Below, in pieces: positions 3,908 to 62,576 of a stretch of 64,000 nt of DNA. The translations under genes and the position numbers were made by a program. Position 1 is the first letter of the stretch. Every line of letters begins with the position of its first letter. The stretch is taken from positions 62,001 through 126,000 of IMG/VR virus record IMGVR_UViG_3300032167_007852. One strand, written 5' to 3'. The notes below the pieces were generated by a model, which saw only the letters and a list, made by a program, of their open reading frames with translations, did not search any database and had not been told where the DNA came from. Origin of the DNA: an uncultured virus (IMG/VR IMGVR_UViG_3300032167_007852) (Duplodnaviria; Heunggongvirae; Uroviricota; Caudoviricetes).

Positions 3908-4057
3908 ATGATAGATATGGATCAATCAGTTTATCTTTGTTGTGAAGAATGTGAAAGTCAATTAGAAGAAATTGAAGAAATTTCTAATGAAGAAGGTAGA
4001 TGTAGATTCATATCATATTACAAATGTGAAAATTGTGGAAAAATTTATAATTATTAG
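3908..4057 (+). CDS. 49-aa zinc-ribbon protein (CxxC-x24-CxxC), not in ORF track
   Basis: GAGGAGG SD; MIDMDQSVYLCCEECESQLEEIEEISNEEGRCRFISYYKCENCGKIYNY*; fills the gap between GNAT3 and RNAP beta-C. Confidence 0.75.
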   Translation: MIDMDQSVYLCCEECESQLEEIEEISNEEGRCRFISYYKCENCGKIYNY

Positions 4058-4070
4058 GGAGGTAATGTAT

Positions 4071-9951: not shown

Positions 9952-9954
9952 AAC

Positions 9955-9966
9955 AACAATAATGTA
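9955..9966 (+). promoter_or_regulatory. AACA-N6-TA promoter of the large ncRNA
   Basis: AACA-ATAATG-TA; the last base coincides with the first base of the RNA closing stem. Confidence 0.6.
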
Positions 9967-10573
9967 ATAAATGTTTGAAGAATTTTAGCCCCAATAAATA
10001 AATTATTGGGGCTCTTAGTAACATGAGAATTACTTAACCGTAACCAGAACGACGTAAACTGTTAATTCCAGTGATACGGATTAGTACGCATCGGTTTTGC
10101 ATGTGAACGGAGGTCAATAGATTTATTTTTTATAAATCTTGGGGTGAAACATATTCTTCAGTCTTAATTTGTCTTTTATTTTTTTATCGGTTCTTCATAT
10201 AAGTGACTGACGAAAAGTTATGTCTGGTCGTAAGTACGAATCATAAGTACGCATTTGCAGGAACATGATTTTGGAAGTCGACCGACAATACGAAGTAGCG
10301 GCTGTATGTGACTTAATGATAAACAAATAAAGACTATACAATTAAGATTTTAGATGGACGGAAGGGTAGTCAGGTTTTTGCTTGATGTGAATCCAACCGT
10401 GATTAATTAGATTTTTTAGCTCCCTTGTCGGAGCAGTACATAAATTTGAACTGGTATTACTTACCTGAGACTACTTAGTATTGACATCAAGGTTTATCAT
10501 TATAAGTGGTCAGCATATTCTTACCTTAGAATATGTAAAGGGTGAGTAATACCCTTCATTCGTCAAATTTATT
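9966..10573 (+). ncRNA. large (~608 nt) ornate structured ncRNA, ROOL-like or novel
   Basis: ORF-free and GC-richer than the flanks; the 5' end 9966-9983 pairs with the 3' end 10558-10573; many nested and crossing helices (see findings). Confidence 0.75.
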
Positions 10574-10628
10574 AAATTTTAATTACGGTATAACAAATAT
10601 GTAGATTAAAATTATAGGAGGTAATGTT

Positions 10629-11037: not shown

Positions 11038-11077
11038 TGTAAAAAGGTAACATTTCAATTATATATTATAATTGTGA
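11038..11077 (+). promoter_or_regulatory. phage early-type promoter motif, copy 3
   Basis: TGTAA-N10-TTTCAATTATATATTATAATTGTGA. Confidence 0.75.
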
Positions 11078-16162: not shown

Positions 16163-17938
16163 ATGAGTAAAAATAACAAATTATCTTTTAATGTATATGT
16201 TGATGCGGACACAAGATTAGCTAAAGTAAATTGTGTTGAGCAAGTAGGAGCGATAATATCTTACACAGAAGCATATGATGAATTTGCCAAAACTCATAAA
16301 ACAACTGCAGAAAATTTAGACAAGGTTCTCAAGTCTTTAGATGATGTATTTAAAGCTGGAAATATAGAAAACGATGTAGAATTGGTTAGAGTGTCTATGG
16401 CTATGTTAGAAACTCCACCATTCATGTTTTACCTAGAATATTTAGAGGATACAGTTTCAGAAAAATTAACATTCAACAAAAAACCAAATGATATATTTGG
16501 TATGCAATTCGAACAAATATTCCCACCGATATTAGGTATGAAAGGAGATGTTCCAGATATGTTAGGAATGGATAATTTTATGTTAGGTTCTAAAAAGAAA
16601 GAAGAACCTAAGAAAGAAGAAGCTAAGAGAACAACATTAACATTTGATGATGTTGTAGGTATGCATGAAGTAAAAGATAAATTAAGAGATGTTATAGATC
16701 AATTTAAAAATGCTGAAAAATATAAAGCATGGAATATAAAACCTATAAAAGGTATATTATTATACGGTCCATCAGGTACAGGAAAATCTTATATATCTGA
16801 AGCATTTGCTAATGAGATAGATGCAAAATTCTTCCCATTATCTTCTGCAGATATAATAAGTAAGTACCTAGGTGAATCAGGTAAGACAATAAGAACCAAA
16901 TTCGAAGAAGCTAGAAAACATCCTTTATCAATAATATATATAGATGAGGTTGATTCAATAGCTGCTAAAAGAGATGGTTCAGAAAACAATAAAGAAAGAA
17001 ATGCAACATTAAATGAACTTCTAGTTCAAATGGCATCACCAGAAAATGATAATGTTATAATGATATTTGCTACAAACATGCTTGATCTATTAGACCCAGC
17101 ATTCTTAAGATCTGGACGTTGTGATTTTAAAATAGAAGTTTCATTACCAGATTTTGATTGCAGAAAAGGTATATTAGAGATAAACTCTAAAGGTAGACCA
17201 TTAGCAGAAGATGTAGATTTTGAAAAGATAGCAAGAAACATGAGTGGTATGAACTGTGCAGATATGGCAGTTGTTGCAAATGAAGCTGCACGTAAAGCTT
17301 TAAAAGCTGGAAAAGATGTAATAGAAGCAGAAGATTTTGATAAAGCATTTGAAGAAATGGTATGTGGTGCTAAATCAGAAACTAAGAGATTAGGTGAAAA
17401 AGAAAAAGACATAGTTTCAATACATGAAACAGGTCACCTATTTGCTAATGAAATATATAAAGTTAACAAAACTAAAAAGATATCAATATTACCTAGAGGT
17501 ACAACTTTAGGATTTGTAATGCATGCAAACGAAGAAGAAGATGATAAATTCTTACAAAGTAAAGAAGAATTAATGAATAGAATAAGAGTTAGCTTAGCAG
17601 GTAGAGCTGCTGAAGAAGTATTCTTTGGAGATGTAACAACAGGAGCTGCAAACGACCTAGAAAAAGCAAATAGTGTAGTTGAAGCTATGATATGTAATTA
17701 CGGTCTTGTAGCTGAATTAGGATTATCAACATTCAATTTAAATAACCCAATGGTTATAGGTCTAATACAAGAATACAAAAATAAAATATTAGACAAGTGT
17801 TATGAAGATGTTATAAAAATGGTTGTAGAAAACAAAGAAAAAATGAGAGAATTTGCAGATGTGTTAAAAGAAAAAGAAGAAATGACAGGAGCTGAAATAG
17901 AAGAAATATTATATCCTGAAACAGCAGATGCTGAATAA
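16163..17938 (+). CDS. ftsH: FtsH-like AAA+ zinc metalloprotease without N-terminal TM segments
   Basis: TFDDVVG, GPSGTGKS, IYIDEVD, LDPAFLRSGRCD, HETGH zinc motif, LAGRAAEE, TTGAANDLEKA. Confidence 0.9.
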   Translation: MSKNNKLSFNVYVDADTRLAKVNCVEQVGAIISYTEAYDEFAKTHKTTAENLDKVLKSLDDVFKAGNIENDVELVRVSMAMLETPPFMFYLEYLEDTVSEKLTFNKKPNDIFGMQFEQIFPPILGMKGDVPDMLGMDNFMLGSKKKEEPKKEEAKRTTLTFDDVVGMHEVKDKLRDVIDQFKNAEKYKAWNIKPIKGILLYGPSGTGKSYISEAFANEIDAKFFPLSSADIISKYLGESGKTIRTKFEEARKHPLSIIYIDEVDSIAAKRDGSENNKERNATLNELLVQMASPENDNVIMIFATNMLDLLDPAFLRSGRCDFKIEVSLPDFDCRKGILEINSKGRPLAEDVDFEKIARNMSGMNCADMAVVANEAARKALKAGKDVIEAEDFDKAFEEMVCGAKSETKRLGEKEKDIVSIHETGHLFANEIYKVNKTKKISILPRGTTLGFVMHANEEEDDKFLQSKEELMNRIRVSLAGRAAEEVFFGDVTTGAANDLEKANSVVEAMICNYGLVAELGLSTFNLNNPMVIGLIQEYKNKILDKCYEDVIKMVVENKEKMREFADVLKEKEEMTGAEIEEILYPETADAE

Positions 17939-17982: not shown

Positions 17983-18022
17983 TGTAAAAACAATAACTTT
18001 TAATTATATATTATGTAAATGA
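17983..18022 (+). promoter_or_regulatory. phage early-type promoter motif, copy 4
   Basis: TGTAA-N10-TTTTAATTATATATTATGTAAATGA. Confidence 0.65.
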
Positions 18023-25865: not shown

Positions 25866-27262
25866 ATGGAATTCTTACAATTAAAAGAAACTAGAAGAGA
25901 CGATATTATGTTATTGAATGTTATTTATAATCAACCAAGTCCACAAACTAATTGGGTGGATTCTATAGATGTTATATATAAAGATTTAGCAACTGATGAA
26001 AAATATTTAGAAACTATATTAAATCCTACAATGGATGTATATTTTACAAAACCTGAATATAGAAATTATGAACATCCTAAATATGTTTTACCAGTAGATC
26101 AATGTGAGATTAAAAATATAAGTTGTAAATATGCAACTAGAGATATAGCTAAACAAGCAGGTGGAAAATATGAAGCTTATTATAGAAGTTGTGCAGAATC
26201 AAAGAATAGAAAAGCAATGAAAAATCTTCATAAGTATCCATATGTATTAGCAAGTGATTATGATCCAGAGTCATATTATAGAATACAATTTTCATGTAAT
26301 TATTTAAATGAAAAACCTAAACCAATAACTAAACTATATTCAGATATAGAGGTTGATGGTATAAATGTAGAAGGTTTCGTTACAGATGGTGTTGCACCAA
26401 TAAATGCAATAACATTAATAGATGAAAAAACTAGAAAATGTTTTACATTCGCATTAAGAAATGAAAAGAATCCTCAAATACAAGAACTTGAAGATAATTT
26501 AGATTTATTTAAACATGAATGTCATAAGATGTTTGATGAATCATATGGAGAGTTTGAATATAATATAGTATTCTATGATGAAAAAGATGAATTAGCAATG
26601 TTGAAAGATTATTTTAAATTAATTCATTTATTAAAAAGAGATTTTATAATGTTTTGGAATATGAACTTCGACGCAAATTATTTAATGGATAGAATAACCG
26701 AATTAGGTGAAAATCCTGCAGATATAATGTGTCATCCAGAATTTCCTATAAAGAAATGTTATTATTATGCAGATAGAAAAAACTTTGCAGTTAAGATGAA
26801 AAAGGATTGGTTTACAATTTCAGATTATACAGTATGGGTAGACCAAATGATTTTATATGCACAAATAAGAAAAGGTCAATCAGAATTAGGTTCTGTTAAA
26901 TTAAACATTATAGGACAAAAAGAATTAGGTGATGAAAAACTTGATTATAGTGAAGAAGCAAACATCAAAACATTACCATATGTGAATTATAAAAAGTTCT
27001 TATTGTACAACATAAAAGACGTTCTTTTACAATATGGTATAGAAAGAAAAACTTCAGATTTAGATAACTTATATACAAGAAGTATATTAAATAGTGTTCC
27101 TTATAAGAAAGTTTTCTCACAAACAGCATTATTAAGAAATAGATGTTATGTTGAATATTTAAAACAAGGTTATGTTATCGGTAATAATATAAACTTAGAT
27201 TATAATAAAGATTGGGATTCAGATGAGGATGAAGAAGAAAAAGAAAAATTCGCAGGAGCGTT
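25866..27262 (+). CDS. family-B DNA polymerase N-terminal subunit, exon 1 (3'-5' exonuclease)
   Basis: ExoI YSDIEV, ExoII FWNMNFDANYL, ExoIII YNIKDV; ends at ...FAGA-TT, the 5' splice site. Confidence 0.88.
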
Positions 27263-28160
27263 TAATACCAATGGACGCTATAAAAGCTCTCTAATTGCTG
27301 GAACACCCTTAGAGCCTAAAGTACCAAAGTGTAAAAATCTTTAGGATTGGGCAATCAGCAGCGAAGATATTTATTATAAAAATTATATTGGAAATAAAAT
27401 TATAAAGGTGTTGATAATAATGTACTACAAAGATATAGCTGAAGATGAAAATGAAATATTCATAACAGTTTTTATAGATGGTGAGTATTATTATGATTAT
27501 TTGGTTAGCAATAAAGGTAGAATTTTTAGTTTAAAAACATTAACTTTTATGGAAGGAACACATAATCATAATGGTTATGTTAGAATAAAATTAAGGGATA
27601 GTGAAGGTAAACAACATATAAAACCTAAACATAGAATAGTAGCAGAAAGTTTTTGTGAAAATAATGAAAATAAACCTTTTGTTAACCATATAGACGGGAA
27701 TAAAGATAATAATAGTCCAGATAATTTAGAATGGGTTACAGCTAAAGAAAATACAAAACATGCGATAGAAACTGGACTTATATACACAGTCGGCGAAAAA
27801 TCTCATTTTGCAACTATAAATGAAGAAACAGCACATAAAATATGTAAGTTGATTGATGAAGGTAAAATGAGTTTAAAAGAGATAGCTCAATATCTTAATG
27901 TGGGATACGATTGTGTTAAGAAAATAAATAGAGGAAAATCGTGGGTACACGTTTCAAACCAATATAATTTTTTAAAATAAATATAACGTTCAACGACTAT
28001 CGAAACCACACTGTAAAGTGAAAGGGAGTAGAGTACACTCAAGTGAGTGGAAACGGGAGCCATTCTGAAAAGAATGATGATATAGTCTGATCTCATATGA
28101 AAGTATGAGCGGTTCTTAGAGAAACGGCGTGGGAGTAACGATCCCACGTGAACATGAATG
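27263..28160 (+). mobile_element. group I intron (IA2-like) in the DNA polymerase gene
   Basis: P1 AGCGTT/GACGCT with a U-G wobble; P10 CCAAT pairs with exon-2 GTTGG; core AATTGCTGGAA, GGCAATCAGCAG, GTTCAACGACTA, GATATAGTCT; P9 CTCATAT-GAAA-GTATGAG; terminal G at 28160; splicing restores FAGALVGDP...DFSSLYPS. Confidence 0.92.
27408..27980 (+). CDS. intron-encoded NUMOD4-like/HNH homing endonuclease
   Basis: YLVSNKGRIFS, HRIVAESF, VNHIDGNKDNN..NLEWVT..EN, C-terminal HTH. Confidence 0.9.
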   Translation: MLIIMYYKDIAEDENEIFITVFIDGEYYYDYLVSNKGRIFSLKTLTFMEGTHNHNGYVRIKLRDSEGKQHIKPKHRIVAESFCENNENKPFVNHIDGNKDNNSPDNLEWVTAKENTKHAIETGLIYTVGEKSHFATINEETAHKICKLIDEGKMSLKEIAQYLNVGYDCVKKINRGKSWVHVSNQYNFLK

Positions 28161-28563
28161 AGTTGGAGACCCGACATTAAATAGTACAGTTAATGGTATG
28201 GAAGTTAATGGAGTTAAGAACAGATATGTACGTAAGTATGTTATAGATTTTGACTTCTCAAGTCTATATCCAAGTATTAAAATAGCACATAATGTTGGAC
28301 CACATACATTAGTAGGTAAAATATCTTTAGATGAAAAAGTTTATGATAGATATACAGCTTTTGAAATGAACAATGACAAAGGTAATATGTATGATTCAGG
28401 AAAAGATTTTGTGGAAAATATGTTATGTCAGAATCCTGTTATGACAGGAGTTAGATGGATGAATTTACCGAATATGATGGAAATATTAGAAATGGTCGGA
28501 AAAGAATTTGGTAAAGATACAAGTAAAATAATTCCTGAGGAAAATAAATACAGAAGGGAGTAA
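28161..28563 (+). CDS. family-B DNA polymerase N-terminal subunit, exon 2 (motif A)
   Basis: in frame after splicing; VIDFDFSSLYPSI; the spliced product is 599 aa and lacks motifs B and C. Confidence 0.88.
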
Positions 28564-28567
28564 TTAT

Positions 28568-29230
28568 ATGAATGTAATATTTGAAGAAAAAGAAAAGAAG
28601 TTTAAAACTTCTTTTCTTAAAGAATTGGAAAATAACGTTAAAGTGTTGAAAAATATATACGATGAAGTTTATATAAATAATGAAGGTTTATGTTATTCTT
28701 TAGAAAGTAAATTAGATTCAGGAAGAGTATTTTGTAATAGCACGTTACACAAGTTATTTGAGATTGGAGAAAATCAATTATTAAAATTAAATTTAAAAGC
28801 GATTAGTGATTGTCTTAAAGCAGGGAAATCTAAAATAATCGGATTTTTTGTTGATTGTGGATTAGTATTCCGTACAACAGAAATGGATTATGAAGTAGGA
28901 GAGTTTCAAGATAATAAAAAACTTAATATAGATTATATAAATGAGATAACTAAAAATGTTAAATATAAATGTAATATAAATGAACTAATCGAAAGATTTG
29001 TAAATAAAGAATTTATAAATGTAAGAAAAGATAAGTATGATTTATTATTAACACATAAATTATTTCCAATGATAGGTAAGTCAAGTGAATTTAATTTAGA
29101 AATTAAAGAAAATGATAACGGAACATTTTATGGTATATTTAAAAATAAAATAGAAGAAAGAAATAAAAAAGATGAAGTAACTTTCGAAATAGAAATAACT
29201 TATATTTACAGATTTTTAGATTTAAACTAA
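28568..29230 (+). CDS. hypothetical protein cotranscribed with the DNA polymerase gene
   Basis: 220-aa ORF starting 4 nt after the polymerase stop. Confidence 0.7.
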   Translation: MNVIFEEKEKKFKTSFLKELENNVKVLKNIYDEVYINNEGLCYSLESKLDSGRVFCNSTLHKLFEIGENQLLKLNLKAISDCLKAGKSKIIGFFVDCGLVFRTTEMDYEVGEFQDNKKLNIDYINEITKNVKYKCNINELIERFVNKEFINVRKDKYDLLLTHKLFPMIGKSSEFNLEIKENDNGTFYGIFKNKIEERNKKDEVTFEIEITYIYRFLDLN

Positions 29231-51436: not shown

Positions 51437-52918
51437 TTAATCTGTTATTATGTATAGTCTATTTGGATCTTTTGTTGGTATTGCATCAAATTGATCCTGT
51501 GTCCCAATCCAGAATGTAAGAAATCCTTCATGACCATGTGTTTTAGGTGCAAAGATATCACTATAATCATGAGTATGATTTATATCCGAATACACACCAT
51601 CATGTTCATGTGTTTTAGGTGCAAAGATATCACTATAATCATGAGTATGATTTATATCCGAATACACACCATCATGTTCATGTGTTTTAGGTGCATAATC
51701 GTCATCATGATTATGATCATTCATTTGACTTTTAAGTGTTGTAATATCATTCGTATTAGTATTTATTTTCTTATTAACATCAGTTAAATCTACTCCTTCA
51801 GGTATATCTAAATCATTTATCATACCTCTAAGTTTTTCTATATCAACATCGTGCCCATCAACTCTACCTTTAAGAGTATCAATATCTCTAGCATTATCTG
51901 ATATATTCGTTTTATTTGTATTTATATCTTTAATAACATCAGTTAAATCCACTTCTTCAGGTATATCTAAATCATTTATCATATCTTTCAGTTCTTCTAG
52001 ATCAGCATCATGCCCATCAACTCTACCTTTAAGAGTATTAATATCTCCAGCATTAGTAGATATATTTGTGGTATTGGTATTTATTTTCTTATTAACATCA
52101 GTTAAATCTACTTCTTCTGGTATTTCTAGTCCATCTAAGTCCTCTCTCAACTTAGCTATATCTGTATCATTAGAGGCGATATTATTTTTATTTGTATTTA
52201 TATCCTTTATAATATCAGTTAAATCCACTTCTTCTGGTATATCTAAACCTGCAATTAAATCAAATAATTCATCTATGTCTCCTTTATTATTGGATATATT
52301 AGTTATATTATTATCAACTTTTCTTTTTAATTCAGATATATCTGATGTATGTATATCAATATTACCAGTATTCGTCTGAACCTTTCCTTTTAATTCTTCG
52401 ATATTAGTATCATTTTCTCCAATATTCGTAGTATTTACATTTACTTTTTTAGTAAGTTCAGCTATAGATTCTCTAAGTTCACTTCCTAAACTAGTATTAC
52501 TTCCTCCTAATGCAGCAACATCAGCTAATAACTTAGTTATGTTGCCTGTATTGATTTGAACTTGATCGTCTATATCATTAATATTACTATCTTGAGAAAC
52601 ATTTTTATTTTTAAGTTCATCATAAAGTTTTTCAAGTCTTTGTCTTAATGCACTTATAAGATCATCATGTGTAACATCTTTATTTTGTAATTCTTTAATC
52701 GCTTCTTTAATAGCACCAAGATCTGCAACAGATCTCCATGTACCAGGTTCTCCTGATCTGATACAAACCCACCCAAGCGTTTCTTTTTCCTGATGACTTG
52801 ATATAACAATGTCACCTACTTTGTATGATCCAGTTGTTGGAGGTTCTGGTAAGCAATGTAATTGGTGTTCTGCAAAATATGAAGCTTCTATATTACTTAC
52901 ATACTTTCTTGTAGCCAT
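51437..52918 (-). CDS. coiled-coil fibre-like protein (paralog A) with HxH repeats
   Basis: same N- and C-terminal motifs as 49387..50427; four IPE(E/G)VDLTD repeats; HTH/HEH repeats. Confidence 0.75.
   Translation of the reverse strand: MATRKYVSNIEASYFAEHQLHCLPEPPTTGSYKVGDIVISSHQEKETLGWVCIRSGEPGTWRSVADLGAIKEAIKELQNKDVTHDDLISALRQRLEKLYDELKNKNVSQDSNINDIDDQVQINTGNITKLLADVAALGGSNTSLGSELRESIAELTKKVNVNTTNIGENDTNIEELKGKVQTNTGNIDIHTSDISELKRKVDNNITNISNNKGDIDELFDLIAGLDIPEEVDLTDIIKDINTNKNNIASNDTDIAKLREDLDGLEIPEEVDLTDVNKKINTNTTNISTNAGDINTLKGRVDGHDADLEELKDMINDLDIPEEVDLTDVIKDINTNKTNISDNARDIDTLKGRVDGHDVDIEKLRGMINDLDIPEGVDLTDVNKKINTNTNDITTLKSQMNDHNHDDDYAPKTHEHDGVYSDINHTHDYSDIFAPKTHEHDGVYSDINHTHDYSDIFAPKTHGHEGFLTFWIGTQDQFDAIPTKDPNRLYIITD
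51535..51695. repeat. 72-bp tandem coding repeat (two full copies plus a partial)
   Basis: CATGTGTTTTAGGTGCA at 51535, 51607 and 51679; encodes APKTHEHDGVYSDINHTHDYSDIF. Confidence 0.9.
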
Positions 52919-56371: not shown

Positions 56372-56411
56372 TCATAGATATAATATGTAATTGAAATATT
56401 ACTCTGTTACA
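56372..56411 (-). promoter_or_regulatory. phage early-type promoter motif, copy 6 (overlaps a 39-bp palindrome)
   Basis: - strand TGTAA-N10-TTTCAATTACATATTATATCTATGA. Confidence 0.7.
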
Positions 56412-57094
56412 CTATCTGGAATTTCTAATGCTTCCCAAGCTTTTTCTGTTATTTCTTCTCTTGTAAGCATTTCATAACTTCCATCTTCATTCTGCTTACA
56501 GCAATCTATCATAACATAACCTTCTATATCACATAATCTTTGTAAATTATTATATGCTTTCGTAAGATTTTCTATTGTTTCATTCTCATCCGTTTCTCTA
56601 CCACGGTTTAAAATGTTTTGATATGATACTTCAGGCTTAACACTCAATACTAGGGTGATATCTGGTTCAGGTAAACCTAATAGATCAAATTCTATATATT
56701 TCATTTTTGTTATATATACTTCTAATTCATCTTCTGACATGTCATTGCATCTGTGTATAAAGTTACTAGAAAGATATCTGTCGAATATCAATAATTTATT
56801 TTCATTATATTCATCTAATTTAGATTTTCCATTTTCTCTTATTCGTCCTAATGAAACCATTCTATCTATAGCATACAACATTCCTTCTCTCACTTCTTTA
56901 TATCCATCATCATTAAATCTTAAACCTTCATATAAGAATTTATCAACTAGCTCTCCAGAGAATTCTTCTTGATGTCTTGGAAAACTTATTATCTCGGCTT
57001 CTATATTTAATGCTTCAAATTTCTTTTTAAGATTCTCTGCTAATGTTCTTTTTCCACTTCCATCAATTCCTTCAATAGCTAAAGAAATTCCCAT
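56399..57094 (-). CDS. tmk: thymidylate-kinase-family dNMP kinase
   Basis: AIEGIDGSGK, SFP, LYAIDR, FDRYLSSN, PEPD. Confidence 0.85.
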   Translation of the reverse strand: MGISLAIEGIDGSGKRTLAENLKKKFEALNIEAEIISFPRHQEEFSGELVDKFLYEGLRFNDDGYKEVREGMLYAIDRMVSLGRIRENGKSKLDEYNENKLLIFDRYLSSNFIHRCNDMSEDELEVYITKMKYIEFDLLGLPEPDITLVLSVKPEVSYQNILNRGRETDENETIENLTKAYNNLQRLCDIEGYVMIDCCKQNEDGSYEMLTREEITEKAWEALEIPDSVTE

Positions 57095-58260: not shown

Positions 58261-59295
58261 TTATTTAAAGCTTAATGTTATAACTTCTGGTTCAGCTATA
58301 GATCTTGTATTATCTAATTTAACTTGAACGTTATCTATTGTTATTTTTATATGTTCTGTACTTTTAGCTGTTATAACTTTTGTATTCTCAATGTCTTTAG
58401 CTATTTCATCTATGTTATCAACAGTTGAACTTATATTCTCTAATGTTTCATTTAATGACTCAACCATTTCATTTACATTCATGACTTCTTCAGCTTTATC
58501 TATTACTGCTTGTTTTGTAGGATTCATACTTTGTAATTGATTGTATATAGATTCAGCTATTTTATCTGAAACATAATTTACATAATCATCACTACAAATC
58601 TTAACTATTTCTGCTTTATTAAAATATCCAAATTCACCTAGGATGCTTATTTTATTACTATTTTTAAATTGATTTAATTCTCCTATATATCCATCATTAG
58701 CTCTATTCGATCTTTGAGGAACATAGTTATTATTCTTTATAGAATTAGAGAATTTATTTGCTACTTCTGCTGATTTTGTATCTCCTTCATTATACATGAA
58801 GAAATATCCTGTACTGTCATCTTTGAAAGAATTATGATGAACTGATAAATATATTTTTGGATCACATTTCATTGCTCTTCTACCTGCTGCATTTAAATCT
58901 CCAGATTTATCAGTTGCATATTGTAGATTTACATCTACTCCATATTTGCTATCTAATTTTTTAGCTATAGCTTTTGCAAGTTTTAAATTGATATCATATT
59001 CTGATATAAACCATTCGTTGTTTTCAACCCTTAATGGTATGTCACTAGGTATTTCTTTTATAGAGATTCCATGTTGACTTAAATTTATATCATTACCCCA
59101 TGTATATCGTTTACCTGGTTTAACTGTATCTTTGTTACCCCATTCACCTGCTCTGATTACTACTTCTGTTGGTCTTATTGCGTTTTCACTATAATCTGCA
59201 TATGCTGTATCTTTAGGTAAACTTGTTAATATCATTGCTGCGAATAATATTGCTGTTAAAAGATTTTTTCCATATTTTATTATAGCTTGTAACAT
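58261..59295 (-). CDS. secreted N-acetylmuramoyl-L-alanine amidase (Amidase_3-like)
   Basis: signal peptide ending AYA; EYDINLKLA, YLSVHHNS, ILGEFGYF; the first zinc-ligand motif is atypical (RAGE). Confidence 0.7.
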   Translation of the reverse strand: MLQAIIKYGKNLLTAILFAAMILTSLPKDTAYADYSENAIRPTEVVIRAGEWGNKDTVKPGKRYTWGNDINLSQHGISIKEIPSDIPLRVENNEWFISEYDINLKLAKAIAKKLDSKYGVDVNLQYATDKSGDLNAAGRRAMKCDPKIYLSVHHNSFKDDSTGYFFMYNEGDTKSAEVANKFSNSIKNNNYVPQRSNRANDGYIGELNQFKNSNKISILGEFGYFNKAEIVKICSDDYVNYVSDKIAESIYNQLQSMNPTKQAVIDKAEEVMNVNEMVESLNETLENISSTVDNIDEIAKDIENTKVITAKSTEHIKITIDNVQVKLDNTRSIAEPEVITLSFK

Positions 59296-59367
59296 AATAA
59301 CACCCCTCAAATTTTTTAAATTTTTATAGCTATCTTTTAGCAAATTTATCTTGAAGTTGTTTTTAAG

Positions 59368-59856
59368 TTATCTTACTAATACTGTTGGTAATCCTTGGTT
59401 TTCTCTTTCATATTGATATGAAGAATGTAATGCATCTACATCTAAATTAACAAATACGTTATTCATATTATACTTAGCATGAATATTAAATACTTCATCC
59501 ATAAAGTTTCTCATATAAGTTAATTCTTCTATGACTGTTCTATTAAATACATTTGTTAAGGTTAATAGATTATCTAATTCCTCTTGAATATATTTAATAC
59601 CTTTTGTTTCTTCTTGACATCCTTCTCTAACCATTTTTATTTCCCCTAATGTTAAGAATGTATTAGTTCCTTGAATATTATATACTTCATAATCTTCATA
59701 GAAACTACTATTCCTATCGGATACTGAATAAGGTTTATATGTTATATCATCAGTTGTGATACTATATAATTGATTAATATAACTATCACACATCGACATT
59801 GTTCCCCAACATATAACCTGATTGAATTTGTCTAAACATATAACATAATTATTCAT
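59368..59856 (-). CDS. hypothetical early protein
   Basis: ORF; start chosen from the GGGAGG SD. Confidence 0.65.
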   Translation of the reverse strand: MNNYVICLDKFNQVICWGTMSMCDSYINQLYSITTDDITYKPYSVSDRNSSFYEDYEVYNIQGTNTFLTLGEIKMVREGCQEETKGIKYIQEELDNLLTLTNVFNRTVIEELTYMRNFMDEVFNIHAKYNMNNVFVNLDVDALHSSYQYERENQGLPTVLVR

Positions 59857-59885
59857 ATTAAATCCTCCCTTAATAATATTTTGTA

Positions 59886-59924
59886 TCACTTTTATAATAT
59901 ATAACTGAAATTTTATAATTTACA
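59886..59924 (-). promoter_or_regulatory. phage early-type promoter motif, copy 7
   Basis: - strand TGTAA-N9-TTTCAGTTATATATTATAAAAGTGA. Confidence 0.7.
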
Positions 59925-59927
59925 GTT

Positions 59928-60168
59928 AAAAAAATTATTTCCTCTAAAGGAAATAATTATGTTTATTGCTTGCGTTAGCGAGAAAATTTGTTCATGTAAA
60001 TGAACGTATCTTCCTAACCATATTTCTATTTGTAACAACTTCTTTCACTCACCTTTTTATAAGGTTCGTTTCGTATCTTAATTTCGCTTTCGCTTCATTA
60101 AGAAGTTGTTGGTATGTTGATAAATAATTATACGGTTTCGCTGAAATGTAATTTGCTACAACAATATA
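59928..60168 (-). ncRNA. candidate ~240-nt structured ncRNA
   Basis: AACA-N6-TA at 60169-60180; nested long-range stems; intrinsic terminator at 59928-59958; no ORF with an SD. Confidence 0.55.
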
Positions 60169-60195
60169 TACTATTTTGTTAAGGAACATATAAAA

Positions 60196-60221
60196 TGTGT
60201 ATAGCCCTTAGGCTATACACA
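60196..60221 (-). terminator. hairpin terminator after 60227..60685
   Basis: TGTGTATAGCC-CTTA-GGCTATACACA. Confidence 0.7.
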
Positions 60222-60226
60222 GAATA

Positions 60227-60685
60227 TTATTTTCTAACTTTTCCATCACCTATTAATAAATTAGCTTTATTAACTGCTTTACCAACAGCTTTAGATTTAG
60301 TATTTTTAGATTTTTTCATAGCTTGTTTTGCTAATTGTTTAGCTTGAGCAGAATATCTTTTTTCTAATTTTTTCTCTATGAATCTTTCTAATTTCCATAA
60401 AGTTAAAAGTTTTTTGAAATCTCTATCATTTTTTTCTTTAGCTACTTGGAATATAGCCATTTTGTAAGCTTTATTTTTCTTAGCTTCTTTATCTAAACGA
60501 ACTATACTTCTTTCTACTAATATATCTTCATTTATAGCTTTTCCTAAATCGTAAGTATTTTCAGTTAAAGATTCTATTTCTTCACTAGAGAATGTATCTA
60601 ATATAGCACATTCTACTATTAAAGCATTAATTTCAGTTTCATTACTAAATTCATTTATTATTAATCCGTTATCATCGAATATCAT
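60227..60685 (-). CDS. probable virion protein (acidic propeptide, basic C-terminal part)
   Basis: charge switches from acidic to basic at ILVE-RS. Confidence 0.6.
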   Translation of the reverse strand: MIFDDNGLIINEFSNETEINALIVECAILDTFSSEEIESLTENTYDLGKAINEDILVERSIVRLDKEAKKNKAYKMAIFQVAKEKNDRDFKKLLTLWKLERFIEKKLEKRYSAQAKQLAKQAMKKSKNTKSKAVGKAVNKANLLIGDGKVRK

Positions 60686-60708
60686 AAAATTTACCTACCT
60701 TTCGTATT

Positions 60709-61698
60709 TTAATTCATTGTTACACCATATGCACTACAAAAATCTTTTTTAGCTTGTTCGTATACTGTAAAGAAAGCATTGTAAGCTTTAAATACATTTG
60801 AAGTCATTGCACTTATGAATGAACTTACCATAGTTATTAATTGTTCTACTTGTGAAATATTACTTTGGTCTATTTCTGCTCCTCCATTACGTGCACCTTC
60901 AAGTTGACTTTTTAATTGTTCTAATTGTTTAATGGTATGGCTTTGGGCATCGTTAAGATATTTAGAAAGACCTTTACCACCACTTCCTCCATCTCCACCT
61001 TTATCCATATCTGCAGATAGATAAGATTCTACTACATTCATTGGTATATCTTTTACCTTTACAGGTTGTGCTTCTTTAGGTTCTCCAACCTCTAAAGCTA
61101 TTCTATCAGCCATAGATGCTTCTGGTACAGCTTTGTATGATCCTTTTCCTTTAAAGCAAGCACGTTTAACAGCTTTTAAAAGCTGTTTGTTTTCATTTTT
61201 ATATTTATCTGCAAAAAATGATGATAGGTGGTTTCCTACAACACCATTAACGGCATTTATGAATGTATCAGTTACTCCTTCTTTAACTTTGAATTCTGCG
61301 AATTTTATCATGTTAACAGTACGTAAAGATCCAGCGAATATATCTCTCATTGTTACATTCTTTTTACCTTTATGGATATTTGTATCATAAACGTCACTTG
61401 ATTTACCTTGAGCACCGCCTTCTCCGATGGCATCATTTATATCATCTAAAGGAACACTGGATTTTCTACCAAGTAAGAAATCAATCATTTTTTTAACAAG
61501 TTCTCTTATCTTAGCAATTACGGTTTTGATAAATTCAACCACTTTATTAATCGCATTTTTCACATTTTCACCTAGAGCTTCTTGCATGTAATATTCGTTA
61601 TTAGCTAATTGACTTATGGTATAGTCTAAATCATATTTAGCCATATTAACATCCACCATAGCTTTTTGCTCAGCGATTATATCGTATATATTTCTCAT
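60709..61698 (-). CDS. probable internal head protein
   Basis: YMQE-ALGENVKNAINKVVEFIKTVIAKIRELVKK amphipathic helix, as in jumbo-phage head proteins; AACA-N6-TA at 61734-61745. Confidence 0.6.
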   Translation of the reverse strand: MRNIYDIIAEQKAMVDVNMAKYDLDYTISQLANNEYYMQEALGENVKNAINKVVEFIKTVIAKIRELVKKMIDFLLGRKSSVPLDDINDAIGEGGAQGKSSDVYDTNIHKGKKNVTMRDIFAGSLRTVNMIKFAEFKVKEGVTDTFINAVNGVVGNHLSSFFADKYKNENKQLLKAVKRACFKGKGSYKAVPEASMADRIALEVGEPKEAQPVKVKDIPMNVVESYLSADMDKGGDGGSGGKGLSKYLNDAQSHTIKQLEQLKSQLEGARNGGAEIDQSNISQVEQLITMVSSFISAMTSNVFKAYNAFFTVYEQAKKDFCSAYGVTMN

Positions 61699-61791: not shown

Positions 61792-61904
61792 ATAATCAAT
61801 CAAATAACAATGATGTAACCAACTTAGAATAAGGATTGATTAAATTCTATATGATCCTTAACAAAAAATTAATAAAAAATAAAAAAATTAAGGGGGTACA
61901 CCAT

Positions 61905-62576
61905 ATGAAAGAATTAAGTAACAGTTATTTAGTAGAAAGATTAAATGTTGAAAATAGTTTAAGAAATGCTGGCGTAATAGAAGTTCAATCTGTAATGCCT
62001 GGAGAATCATCTGAATACAAAAACAGAGTGCTTAATCTATTTGGTGGATTCGACAAAGCAACAATAAGCGAAATGATGAAACAATGCTTAAAATGGGAAG
62101 AGGAAGATGCTGAGATATTATACAAACATTCTCAACAAATCAGACAATTACAAGATCCAAGACAATTATTAAAACCAATAATATTAAACATAAACTCTCC
62201 TGGAGGACATGTAGATGAATTAATGGCTTTAGTAGACATGTTAGAATCTATGCCTGCTCCAGTTATAACAAGAGCTTATGGAGAAATAGCATCTTGTGGT
62301 TTTGTATTATTCTGCATAGGGGATGAAAGATATGTTGGACCTAATGTATCTTTAATGTACCATGAGATAGCATACGGAATAATGGGAAAAGATAGTGAGA
62401 TAAGAAATTACAGTGAATATACAAAAAGAGTACAAAAACGTATAGATAGATTAATAAAAGCTAAAACAGGAATAACATTAAAGAAATTAGATGAATGGAA
62501 AAAATCTAATCAAGATAAATGGCTGGATGCTGAAGAAGCAGTTGAGCTAGGAATAGCTACAGCATTCTTATATTAA
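61905..62576 (+). CDS. clpP: ClpP-like protease
   Basis: LNINSPGG, IASCG (Ser), MYHE (His), DKWLDAEEAVELGIA; start at 61905 after AGGGGG. Confidence 0.85.
   Translation: MKELSNSYLVERLNVENSLRNAGVIEVQSVMPGESSEYKNRVLNLFGGFDKATISEMMKQCLKWEEEDAEILYKHSQQIRQLQDPRQLLKPIILNINSPGGHVDELMALVDMLESMPAPVITRAYGEIASCGFVLFCIGDERYVGPNVSLMYHEIAYGIMGKDSEIRNYSEYTKRVQKRIDRLIKAKTGITLKKLDEWKKSNQDKWLDAEEAVELGIATAFLY

What the first reader, a model, noticed from the sequence alone, without database searches (positions are those of the whole stretch)
59928..60180. Second candidate ncRNA: ~240-nt rod-like RNA with its own late promoter and terminator on the minus strand
Seen: on the - strand, AACA-AAATAG-TA (60180-60169) sits just downstream of the previous gene's terminator. 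It is followed by an ORF-free sequence with nested complementary pairs (+ coordinates): 60159-60166 with 59964-59972; TCGCT near 60138 with AGCGA near 59977; 60130-60137 with 60016-60023; and a perfect 11-bp AACAACTTCTT (60034-60044)/AAGAAGTTGTT (60100-60110). The 11-bp stem encloses a loop rich in CGAA units (GAAGCGAAAGCGAAA, ACGAAACGAACC), which is unusual for this CG-poor genome. The region ends in a terminator, AATTATTTCCT/AGGAAATAATT plus a U run. Inference: an independent small-RNA gene. The long hairpin with internal bubbles resembles a 6S-like RNAP decoy, and the 11-bp arm itself carries an AACA-N6-TA match. A DNA-level structure such as an origin is the alternative.
Basis: partly seen in the sequence, partly recalled or inferred. 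Interest (0 to 1): 0.72.

Follow-up and report, generated by a model that had tools for sequence, protein, structure and literature searches.

The report
New folded RNA family, jumbo phages

Summary
The sequence features are real: an AR9-type late-promoter match (60180-60169, minus strand), an 11-bp stem (60110-60100 / 60044-60034), a CGAA-rich interior and a terminator hairpin (59958-59926). The window's own fold beats every shuffle (z -4.5).

Comparison changes the picture. The element belongs to a family with 2-4 copies per genome in a clade of uncultured AR9-like jumbo phages (56 distinct sequences). It sits at four syntenic intergenic sites. Five cultured relatives lack it, and it matches no Rfam family.

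The conserved part is not a 240-nt rod. It has four parts:
- a three-way junction: an invariant helix P1, hairpin P2, and hairpin P3 with a tandem G·A internal loop;
- a single-stranded motif GGWWAGGAAGAUAYG;
- hairpin P4, often followed by a U-run;
- about 60 nt of conserved upstream sequence.

Covariation is strong: 21 of 31 pairs change on both sides and 89% of cells are paired, against 28-49% in slid controls. The small ORFs are not conserved.

Best reading: a structured RNA gene, late-transcribed in this window. Its function is unknown; protein binding in trans is my best guess. The 5' strand of P1 reproduces the late-promoter consensus in every member, which keeps a polymerase-decoy idea alive but unproven.

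The parts
60196..60221 (-). Intrinsic terminator hairpin (11 pairs, then TTTTAT) of the preceding 152-aa virion-protein gene (60227-60685). It sets the upstream limit of the element.
   Evidence: 3 terminator-like sites found against 0.1 expected in shuffles
60169..60180 (-). AACAAAATAGTA, a match to the AR9-type late promoter AACA-N6-T(A/G). The inferred start site is A at 60169. It is part of the longer word ATGTTCCTTAACAAAATAGTA (60189-60169).
   Evidence: unique in the window, expected 0.03; positional enrichment of the motif before genes; AR9 consensus, passages of PMC5312081. No start site has been mapped.
60111..60166 (-). 5' block conserved in sequence and length: TATTGTTG, AAATTNNATTTCA, a TATAAT-like word, and ACATACC. 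It is either a 5' domain of the RNA or promoter DNA. No conserved fold was found.
   Evidence: (RNAalifold gives no structure)
60100..60110 (-). P1 5' strand, AACAACTTCTT. With the next base (AACAACTTCTTA, 60110-60099) it also matches the late-promoter consensus.
   Evidence: (outer 7 pairs invariant; the eighth pair is UA in 26 and CG in 19 of 45)
60077..60102 (-). P2 hairpin: CTTAAT/ATTAAG plus GC/GC closing a GAAA loop (60091-60088). Its first three bases are shared with P1, so the two pairings exclude each other.
   Evidence: (3-8 nt can pair either way in 53 of 55)
60047..60069 (-). P3 hairpin: outer pairs AC/GT, a tandem G·A internal loop (GA at 60067-60066 and GA at 60050-60049), inner stem ACCTT/AAGGT, and loop ATAAA.
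   Evidence: motif in 50 of 56 sequences against 63 of 2240 shuffles; 16 helix combinations; 6 of 6 pairs change on both sides
60034..60044 (-). P1 3' strand, AAGAAGTTGTT.
60005..60019 (-). Conserved purine-rich motif GGTTAGGAAGATACG (family consensus GGWWAGGAAGAUAYG), predicted to be single-stranded.
   Evidence: (invariant G..G columns). The variant GGAAAGATAGATACG occurs in two extra copies.
59983..60005 (-). P4 hairpin GTTCAT-TTAC-ATGAAC (60005-59990), followed by AAATTTTCT. In many relatives it acts as the terminator; here it is a weak one.
   Evidence: hairpin in 54 of 56; at least 5 T in the next 9 nt in 31; 9 of 9 pairs change on both sides; the core 6 pairs are well kept
59926..59958 (-). 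Second hairpin, AATTATTTCCT/AGGAAATAATT, plus a T-run. It is the probable final terminator in this copy and is not conserved in sequence elsewhere.
   Evidence: 44% kept in relatives. One search does not list it because the stem has fewer than 3 G-C pairs.
59887..59906 (-). Early-promoter consensus GTTATATATTAT-AAAAGT-G of the next gene (ATG at 59856). Not part of the RNA; it shows that the next gene has its own promoter.
   Evidence: exact match TATATATTAT-N6-G; AR9 early consensus AAATATATATTAT-N6-G

Best explanation
The stretch encodes one copy of a conserved, structured non-coding RNA made from the minus strand.

In this window it is most likely a free-standing late transcript. It would start at A 60169, from the AR9-type late promoter at 60180-60169. 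It would end either after hairpin P4 (about 59985, giving roughly 185 nt) or at the stronger hairpin plus U-run at 59958-59926 (giving roughly 245 nt).

The conserved body has three parts:
- A three-way junction. Helix P1 is AACAAC.../...GUUGUU. P2 is a hairpin whose loop is GNRA-like in many members. P3 is a hairpin interrupted by a tandem G·A internal loop.
- A single-stranded purine motif, GGWWAGGAAGAUAYG.
- Hairpin P4.

The segment just after AACAACU can pair with either of two partners, extending P1 or extending P2, so the junction can probably switch register.

Shown: conservation, copy number, covariation, strand, absence of coding, and absence from Rfam.

Inferred: the transcript ends and the function. 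My committed guess for function is an RNA that works in trans by binding a protein, not by long antisense pairing. I put about 0.35 on that class. Within it, about 0.12 goes to the phage's own late RNA polymerase as the partner.
For: Family and synteny
- The same phage record holds a second copy, 73% identical.
- 14 of 14 loci fetched through two neighbouring virion proteins carry the element at the same place.
- A descriptive pattern hits 10 of 10 related records, 20 times in all, with 0 hits for the reversed control.
- A covariance model finds 2, 4, 1, 4, 2, 2, 3, 2, 1 and 1 copies in ten records.
- Scans of IMG/VR and metagenomes bring the total to 56 distinct sequences.

Structure
- On 45 distinct sequences aligned to the model, 89.4% of cells pair and 21 of 31 pairs change on both sides. 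0 of 500 shuffles reach any of the five measures. Slid controls give 28-49% pairing and 4-7 such pairs. Results are similar on 12 and on 22 sequences.
- The P3 tandem-GA motif is present in 50 of 56 sequences against 63 of 2240 shuffles, with 16 different helix combinations.

Strand
- U-runs follow P4.
- G·U cells outnumber A·C cells 19 to 10.
- GA/GA would read as TC/TC on the other strand.

Not coding
- All six frames carry stops in at least one of three close copies.
- The one shared frame is closed in L022 and L024 (read).

Independent unit
- A consensus early or late promoter lies between the element and the next gene in 20 of 20 distinct loci.
- The downstream genes belong to unrelated families at four sites.
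- At two of the sites the upstream gene is divergent.

Promoter here
-.

Known families
- No Rfam match and no tRNA or tmRNA.
Against: - No transcript has been seen. The only RNA-library data available were assembled contigs, which cannot show starts, ends or abundance.
- A late promoter at the equivalent place is strict in only 10 of 55 sequences and loose in 10 more. Many copies therefore have no recognisable promoter.
- The downstream gene is co-oriented in all 22 loci examined. That is what a cis-acting leader would also show.
- The seven outer P1 pairs never vary. They give no covariation support, and most of the later sequences were collected with a pattern that demanded them.
- The model-fitted alignments lean towards the structure, and the divergent subgroup's P2 and P3 are mostly treated as insertions there.
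- The 5' block has no supported fold.
- The trans-acting, protein-binding function rests on inference only.
Confidence: 0.7

Rival explanations
1. Cis-acting leader or attenuator. The folded RNA is the 5' part of longer transcripts. By switching between the long-P1 and long-P2 registers, or by binding a ligand or the transcribing polymerase, it decides whether transcription stops at P4 or runs on into the co-oriented downstream gene. This would be riboswitch-like control, or processive antitermination like the HK022 put RNAs (that comparison is recalled, not tested).
For: - The downstream gene is on the same strand in 22 of 22 loci at four sites.
- A structured domain is followed directly by a hairpin with a U-run in 31 of 56 sequences.
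- P1 and P2 pairings exclude each other over 3-8 nt in 53 of 55 sequences, and both partners co-vary with the shared segment: CUU with AAG and AAG, AUU with AAU and AAU, CUCC with GGAG and GGAG.
- AR9 genes expressed throughout infection have both a late and an early promoter upstream (PMC5312081 abstract), which resembles the layout here.
Against: - In 20 of 20 distinct loci, a consensus early or late promoter sits between the element's hairpin and the gene. The gene therefore does not need read-through.
- The downstream genes are unrelated: a 162-aa protein, a 455-aa protein, a 312-aa virion protein and a 124-aa protein.
- No conserved anti-terminator pairing with P4 was found.
- 25 of 56 sequences have P4 without a clear U-run.
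Confidence: 0.17
2. Base-pairing small RNA. The conserved single-stranded motif GGWWAGGAAGAUAYG is a seed that pairs with host (or phage) mRNAs, and the three-way junction serves as a stabilising or chaperone-binding body.
For: - The motif is the most conserved unpaired stretch.
- It lies next to a terminator hairpin, as in many bacterial small RNAs (general knowledge).
- Several copies per genome would raise the dose.
Against: - In the 128-kb phage record, the 11-nt complement CGTATCTTCCT occurs only at the two elements themselves with up to 1 mismatch. With 2 mismatches it occurs 13 times against about 8.5 expected.
- The motif is purine-rich and resembles a ribosome-binding site, not the complement of one.
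- The host is unknown, so host targets could not be searched.
Confidence: 0.12
3. DNA-level element. The invariant AACAACT..TAA is a working late promoter embedded in an inverted repeat, as a hairpin or cruciform promoter in the manner of phage N4 early promoters (recalled), or part of a transcription-primed replication origin present at several places in the genome.
For: - AACA-N6-TA is kept in all 56 members although its last three bases lie in a stem in one subgroup and in a loop in another.
- The positions of P1 that vary are inside the promoter's free N6 spacer.
- Real promoters of this phage include AACAACTAATTA and AACAACTATTTA, 35-44 nt before genes.
- AR9 polymerase can start on single-stranded template DNA (PMC5449584 passages).
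- There are 2-4 copies per genome at boundaries between transcription units.
Against: - The strictly kept GA/GA loop would be TC/TC on the other strand, so the fold is strand-specific.
- P3, P4 and the motif have no evident DNA role.
- The covarying positions of P1 and P2 lie upstream of the putative internal start, so they would be absent from that transcript.
- G·U cells outnumber A·C cells.
Confidence: 0.08
4. One reading: a roughly 240-nt rod-like hairpin closed by its two ends, working like 6S RNA.
For: The window's own minimum-energy fold is such a rod and is more stable than every shuffle.
Against: - The outer helices are kept at only 38-61% in 24 close relatives.
- The sequence 3' of P4 is not conserved.
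- No 6S model matches at E up to 10 or in 12 other members at E up to 1.
Confidence: 0.03
5. A small protein gene: one of the 41-53-aa ORFs in the stretch.
For: - Three small ORFs exist.
- One frame (..LGRYVHLH..) is shared by three close copies and is preceded by AAGGTGAG.
Against: - That frame is closed after 3-5 codons in L022 and L024 (read).
- The 46-aa ORF has a stop in the paralogue and in L007.
- Conservation follows base pairs, not codons.
Confidence: 0.02

Closest known systems
6S RNA (Rfam RF00013 and relatives), a small RNA that mimics an open promoter and binds RNA polymerase
   Same: Small size, high structure, own promoter and terminator. It also carries a sequence that copies the consensus of the promoters read by a polymerase, here the phage late promoter AACA-N6-TA inside helix P1.
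   Different: No covariance-model match. The conserved fold is a three-way junction plus a tail, not a rod with a central bubble. Binding to any polymerase is untested.
phi29-type packaging RNA (pRNA, Rfam RF00044; its features are recalled)
   Same: A phage-encoded RNA of similar size built round a three-way junction. The window copy lies among virion-protein genes.
   Different: No model match. pRNA is a single-copy gene of small protein-primed podophages. Here there are 2-4 copies at unrelated sites of a jumbo myophage-like genome. Loop-loop pairing between molecules was not examined.
Late transcription units of Bacillus phage AR9 (promoter AACA-N6-T(A/G), read on the template strand by the non-virion polymerase with gp226)
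   Same: The promoter word before the element and inside P1. The early consensus before the next gene. The phage encodes an RNA polymerase beta-like protein and AR9-like virion proteins at about 24% identity.
   Different: AR9 and four other cultured relatives have no such element: 0 of 5 by pattern. This clade encodes a ThyA-type enzyme in 4 of 4 near-complete relatives, so its DNA is probably not plain uracil DNA.
Kink-turn and tandem sheared G·A motifs of structured RNAs
   Same: Two adjacent G·A / A·G mismatches flanked by Watson-Crick helices in P3.
   Different: The loop is a symmetric 2x2 in 50 of 56 sequences and lacks the 3-nt bulge that defines a kink-turn. Five sequences have a 3x2 variant.
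Large structured late ncRNAs noted in other AR9-like gut and rumen phages by this scan (e1-5885335, e1-5945567)
   Same: Same kind of phage, late-type promoter, no Rfam family.
   Different: Those are 500-675 nt and single or two-part. This one is a roughly 150-190-nt multi-copy element. A look-up by sequence found no shared stretch.

Membership tests
6S RNA | Match to the Rfam covariance models | tested here: not met
   No 6S hit at E up to 10 in 59000-61000. No family at gathering score anywhere in the window. Nothing on the core of 12 other members at E up to 1.
6S RNA | Long, largely double-stranded rod closed by the 5' and 3' ends, with a central bubble, conserved among homologues | tested here: not met
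   The window's outer helices are kept at 38-61% in 24 relatives, against 83-94% for P1, P3 and P4.
6S RNA | Binds RNA polymerase holoenzyme and templates a short product RNA | not testable with these tools
   Needs biochemistry.
phi29-type pRNA | Match to Rfam RF00044 | tested here: not met
phi29-type pRNA | Three-way junction with two loops that pair between molecules | tested here: inconclusive
   The junction is present. Complementarity between loops of different molecules was not examined.
AR9-type late promoter | AACA-N6-T(A/G), with the last base as start site | tested here: met
   60180-60169 and 60110-60099. Consensus taken from PMC5312081.
AR9-type late promoter | The motif is used as a promoter by this phage (position before genes) | tested here: met
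   35 of 49 matches within 150 nt upstream of 109 crudely called genes put the start 15-44 nt before the start codon.
AR9-type late promoter | Mapped RNA 5' end at the predicted base | not testable with these tools
   Only assembled contigs of RNA libraries were on hand.
Intrinsic (Rho-independent) terminator | G+C-rich hairpin followed directly by a U-run | tested here: inconclusive
   59958-59926 has an 11-bp stem and a run of T, but only 2 G-C pairs, so the scan does not list it. P4 is followed by AAATTTTCT here. In 31 of 56 relatives, P4 is followed by at least 5 T in 9 nt.
Kink-turn | Tandem G·A pairs next to a 3-nt bulge | tested here: not met
   Tandem GA is present, but the loop is a symmetric 2x2 in 50 of 56 sequences.
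Riboswitch / attenuator leader | Structured domain plus terminator in the 5' leader of the regulated gene, with no other promoter in between | tested here: not met
   The gene is co-oriented in 22 of 22 loci, but a consensus early or late promoter lies between element and gene in 20 of 20 distinct loci.
tRNA / tmRNA | ARAGORN detection | tested here: not met
   0 genes in the window.

The most novel reading that the evidence does not exclude
The RNA is a promoter mimic that regulates the phage's own late (non-virion) RNA polymerase.

Its invariant helix P1 is an RNA copy of the late promoter. The 5' strand carries AACA-N6-UA. The 3' strand carries 3'-UUGU-5', which is the word that the AR9 enzyme reads in single-stranded form on the template strand. 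The shift between the long-P1 and long-P2 registers would expose or hide that word.

Several gene copies driven by late promoters would give dose-dependent feedback on late transcription. This would be a 6S-like principle re-invented for a sigma-less viral polymerase.
Probability: 0.12. Interest if true: 0.9.

Novelty: new variant of a known kind. Interest (0 to 1): 0.62.

Why it matters
Jumbo phages with their own multisubunit RNA polymerases are thought of almost wholly in terms of proteins. The 2026 review I searched (passages only) mentions non-coding RNAs only for phiKZ, in one sentence.

This is a compact RNA fold with unusually clear comparative support. It is kept in 2-4 copies per genome across a whole clade of uncultured gut and rumen AR9-like phages, and it fits no catalogued family. 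It gives RNA biologists a new motif to solve: a three-way junction with a tandem G·A loop and a register switch. It gives phage biologists a concrete candidate regulator of the late programme.

Because the invariant helix reproduces the late-promoter word, a direct test is possible: does the RNA bind or inhibit the phage polymerase? If it does, it would show how a virus tunes a polymerase that has no sigma factor.

Tried and rejected
- Rfam at permissive thresholds gave only chance-level hits to snoRNA and miRNA models. Nothing reached gathering score in the whole window.
- blastn of 59300-60800 against 50,697 phage records: no match.
- ARAGORN: no genes.
- A 15-mer scan of IMG/VR gave 13 loci, of which only 3 were real.
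- RNAalifold on a plain MAFFT alignment of 11 sequences recovered only P1. The first covariance model, built from 2 sequences, was too narrow and gave two reverse-strand hairpin hits. I therefore rebuilt it from 12 sequences.
- Even with the second model, 11 of 56 sources stayed above E 0.001 and are not in the final count. In that alignment the divergent subgroup's P2 and P3 are mostly insertions.
- A 5' helix 'P0' (UAUUGUUG or GGUAUGUAU pairing with CAACAUA or AUACAUACC) looked attractive. It reaches 9-11 bp in one subgroup. It is weak or broken in others, and RNAalifold gives no structure for the 5' block. I left it as uncertain.
- Pairing of the purine motif with the CUUCUUAA segment works in the window but does not covary (read). 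Rejected.
- A search for complementary target sites in the phage record found none.
- Hammerhead, C/D-box, SRP and tetraloop-receptor resemblances were considered by eye and dropped. A defining feature was missing in each case. These comparisons are recalled, not computed.
- A CsrA-sponge idea was dropped. GGA motifs are many in one subgroup, but the window copy has only one or two (read).
- Expression. Two metatranscriptome runs held a small share of the stretch. Laid on 59000-61000 they are assembled contigs. One 421-nt contig from a 94%-identical relative covers 59990-60167 and runs on upstream into unlike sequence. This shows neither a transcript, nor its ends, nor its level, and I draw no conclusion from it.
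- The pattern search in five cultured AR9-like phages found nothing. A more divergent form there is not excluded.
Full report
WHAT THE WINDOW IS

The window is bases 62001-126000 of a 128,249-bp IMG/VR virus record estimated to be 58% complete. G+C is 25-32%.

Its genes mark it as a jumbo phage with its own multisubunit RNA polymerase:
- an RNA polymerase beta-like protein (3972-6356);
- a phiKZ-type internal head protein (60709-61698);
- a ClpP-like head protease (61836-62576);
- a prohead protease and a tail-tube protein;
- an NAD-dependent ligase;
- a family-B DNA polymerase in pieces.

A virion protein next to the second copy of the element finds only AR9-like jumbo phages of Staphylococcus, Bacillus and Listeria among 50,697 phage records. 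Identity is 22-28% in 19 records.

The promoter words of AR9 apply here. I read them in passages of PMC5312081: early AAATATATATTAT-N6-G, and late AACA-N6-T(A/G) with the last base as the start.
- The early word TATATATTAT-N6-G, allowing one mismatch, is enriched: 31 matches against 16.4 +/- 4.4 expected, and 0 of 100 shuffles reach 31.
- The late word is not enriched overall: 139 against 136. It is, however, strongly placed. Of 49 matches within 150 nt upstream of 109 crudely called genes, 35 put the start site 15-44 nt before the start codon.

CHECKING THE OBSERVATION

Read on the minus strand, the stretch lies between two genes:
- upstream, the stop of a 152-aa virion-protein gene (60227-60685), with its terminator at 60221-60196;
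- downstream, the ATG of the next gene at 59856.

The fold of 60170-59925 has -50.0 kcal/mol, against -32.3 +/- 3.9 for shuffles (z -4.53, 0 of 200).

'ORF-free' is not strictly right. One search lists three ORFs of 41-53 aa. The bare promoter word means little by itself. The longer word ATGTTCCTTAACAAAATAGTA is unique in the window (expected 0.03). The same T-run/ATGTYCCT/AACA-N6-TA module precedes genes in relatives (read).

RELATIVES

The same phage record holds a second copy 92 kb away, outside the window (G000:C1:29535-29723, minus strand). It is 73% identical over 187 nt.

I fetched loci through the two neighbouring virion proteins, a route that does not depend on the element's own sequence. 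This gave 14 loci, and nhmmer found the element at the syntenic place in all 14 (E from 1e-54 to 1.2e-4).

A descriptive pattern (AACAACT, 50-80 nt, AGTTGT, 5-30 nt, GGWWRGGRMG) then hit all 10 related records tested, 20 times in all. The reversed control gave no hit.

A covariance model gave copy numbers as follows:

| Record | Completeness | Copies |
|---|---|---|
| Window's record (G000) | 58% | 2 |
| G004 | 100% | 4 |
| G002 | 80% | 4 |
| G006 | 94% | 3 |
| G007 | 97% | 2 |
| G001 | 57% | 2 |
| G005 | 66% | 2 |
| G003, G008, G009 (fragments) | 26-49% | 1 each |

The two extra copies in G002 were missed by the pattern because their motif reads GGAAAGATAGATACG. They keep P1, P2 with a GAAA loop, and a tandem-GA P3 with yet another stem, AUCC/GGAU.

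- IMG/VR returned 117 rows, of which 35 are true members by nhmmer.
- Metagenomes returned 120 rows, of which 40 are true.

Together with the earlier loci this makes 56 distinct sequences.

Five cultured AR9-like phages (AR9, S6, BpSp, LPJP1, SA1) have no match to a looser pattern. Runs that hold the window's stretch are animal gut and faeces metagenomes.

WHAT IS CONSERVED

Plain MAFFT plus RNAalifold saw only P1. I therefore folded each core on its own, built a model from two sequences and then from twelve, and counted pairs on the resulting alignments.

| Alignment | Distinct sequences | Cells paired | Pairs changed on both sides |
|---|---|---|---|
| A7 | 12 | 92.5% | 12 of 31 |
| A8 | 22 | 90.2% | 17 of 31 |
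| A9 | 45 | 89.4% | 21 of 31 |

In A9, 114 cells change on both sides. 0 of 500 shuffles reach any of the five measures. Sliding the partners by 1-3 columns gives 28-49% pairing and 4-7 such pairs.

Three caveats apply:
- These alignments are fitted to the model.
- 11 of 56 sources did not reach E 0.001 and are left out.
- In the divergent 'CUCC' subgroup, P2 and P3 are mostly treated as insertions.

For that subgroup I rely on the single-sequence folds and on a separate motif count. A hairpin of the form (at least 2 bp)-GA-(at least 3 bp)...(at least 3 bp)-GA-(at least 2 bp) is found in 50 of 56 sequences. It is found in 63 of 2240 shuffled interiors. There are 16 different combinations of flanking helices. 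Five of the six exceptions carry a 3x2 version of the loop.

THE ANATOMY IN WINDOW COORDINATES (MINUS STRAND)

- P1: 60110-60100 with 60044-60034.
- P2: 60102-60097 with 60082-60077, plus GC/GC around a GAAA loop (60093-60086).
- P3: 60069-60047, with GA at 60067-60066 and at 60050-60049.
- Purine motif GGTTAGGAAGATACG: 60019-60005.
- P4: 60005-60000 with 59995-59990, followed by AAATTTTCT.
- A second, stronger hairpin with a T-run: 59958-59926.

P4 exists in 54 of 56 sequences and is followed by at least 5 T within 9 nt in 31. In the window it is short, and the second hairpin probably finishes the job.

Upstream of P1, about 60 nt are conserved in sequence and length: TATTGTT.., AAATTnnATTTCA, a TATAAT-like word, and ACATACC. 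They have no supported fold.

They are kept in only 61%, 38% and 61% of cells in 24 close relatives.

TWO ODDITIES

First, the 3-8 nt that follow AACAACU can pair with two partners. One is the distal strand, which lengthens P1. The other is a proximal copy of the same word, which lengthens P2. This holds in 53 of 55 sequences. All three segments change together between subgroups: CUU/AAG/AAG, AUU/AAU/AAU, CUCC/GGAG/GGAG (read). This looks like a junction that can shift register. The subgroups are few, so the events are few.

Second, the seven outer pairs of P1 never vary, and AACAACUnnnUAA reproduces the late-promoter word in every member. Its last three bases lie in a stem in one subgroup and in a GUAA loop in another. 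Most later sequences were collected with a pattern that required AACAACT and AGTTGT, so only two sets speak to this invariance. One is the 11 distinct sequences found through synteny. The other is the two copies found only by the model. All 13 keep it.

STRAND, CODING, INDEPENDENCE

- Strand: U-runs after P4, 19 G·U against 10 A·C cells, and the strict GA/GA loop (TC/TC on the other strand) all point to the minus-strand RNA.
- Coding: all six frames have stops in at least one of three close copies. The one shared frame is closed in L022 and L024 (read).
- Sites: the element occupies four syntenic sites with unrelated neighbours. At two of them the upstream gene is divergent, so transcription must start locally.
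- Downstream promoter: in 20 of 20 distinct loci, a consensus early match (12 of 13 positions) or a late promoter match lies between the element and the next gene. Of these, 17 are within the 110 nt printed. The window's own is, and two more are.

These points favour a separate transcription unit.

Against that, a late promoter at the equivalent place before the element is strict in only 10 of 55 sequences and loose (AACN) in 10 more. In addition, the downstream gene is co-oriented in 22 of 22 loci, which a cis-acting leader would also show.

EXPRESSION

The only RNA-library data were assembled contigs, and they allow no conclusion (see Tried and rejected).

FUNCTION

Nothing computed here shows what the RNA does. 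I commit to a trans-acting, protein-binding RNA as the most likely class (about 0.35), for four reasons:
- several helices and loops are invariant in sequence as well as in shape;
- the copy number suggests a need for dose;
- no complementary target exists in the phage record;
- the conserved unpaired motif is purine-rich.

The boldest version is a mimic of the late promoter acting on the phage's non-virion polymerase. It draws on PMC5449584 (passages): the AR9 enzyme recognises 3'-UUGU-5' in single-stranded form on the template strand and needs uracil there. The 3' strand of P1 ends in exactly that word.

The uracil argument is weakened by two things:
- A ThyA-type enzyme is encoded in 4 of 4 near-complete relatives that carry the element. 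There is no ThyX. The window's own incomplete record shows no ThyA, ThyX or dUTPase.
- Earlier notes of this scan reached the same view for similar phages.

I give this reading 0.12. The rivals are a cis-acting attenuator or antiterminator, a base-pairing small RNA, and a DNA-level promoter or origin element. They are set out with their tests in the Rival explanations section.

NOVELTY

- No Rfam family matches.
- Three literature searches (listings and abstracts only) turned up no description of a structured small RNA in AR9-like phages.
- A 2026 review of jumbo phages mentions non-coding RNAs only for phiKZ (passages).
- I could not check candidate-motif catalogues from microbiome surveys (for example PMC8040213, seen only in a listing). 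Their supplements might hold this motif under another name.

Noticed in passing
window 9952-10628 (+): This is the largest ORF-free gap of the window (677 nt) and is richer in G+C than its surroundings. It starts with the late-promoter word AACAATAATGTA (9955-9966) and the preceding gene's terminator. It folds with z -6.68 (0 of 20 shuffles fold as well).
   Followed up: partly
G000:C1:29535-29723 (-), outside the window (locus L002:1501-1693): Second copy of the element in the same phage, 73% identical. It lies in a divergent intergenic region upstream of a 312-aa virion protein gene that has its own AACAATTTAGTA promoter.
   Followed up: yes
window 25866-29230 (+): The family-B DNA polymerase is in pieces: an exonuclease part at 25866-27344 and a polymerase part at 28198-28563 and beyond. 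An HNH/NUMOD4 endonuclease ORF (27408-27980) lies between them, which suggests an intron or intein with a homing endonuclease.
   Followed up: no
window 59887-59903 (-), 2843-2859, 11060-11076, 18005-18021 (+): Exact matches to TATATATTAT-N6-G, the core of the AR9 early-promoter consensus. The uncultured phage therefore shares both AR9 promoter classes.
   Followed up: partly
relatives G002, G004, G006, G007 (e.g. G004:C1:223369-224166): All four near-complete relatives encode an intact ThyA-family enzyme (E about 1e-67 to 1e-69) and no ThyX. The clade probably does not have plain uracil DNA although it uses AR9-type promoters. The family also includes dUMP hydroxymethylases, so a modified base is possible.
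   Followed up: partly
window 16163-17938 (+): A phage-encoded FtsH-like protein (AAA plus Peptidase_M41, E 1e-35 to 1e-36), unusual cargo for a phage.
   Followed up: no
window 51437-52918 (-): A 493-aa tail-tip protein (Phage_tail_C at its end) made of repeated coiled-coil units (..DIPEEVDLTD..NTN..) and a histidine-rich tandem repeat (HEHDGVYSDINHTHDYSDIFAPKTH) near the C-terminus.
   Followed up: no
window 56399-57094 (-): A thymidylate-kinase-like gene (PF02223, E 3e-17). It could bear on which pyrimidine the phage DNA carries.
   Followed up: no
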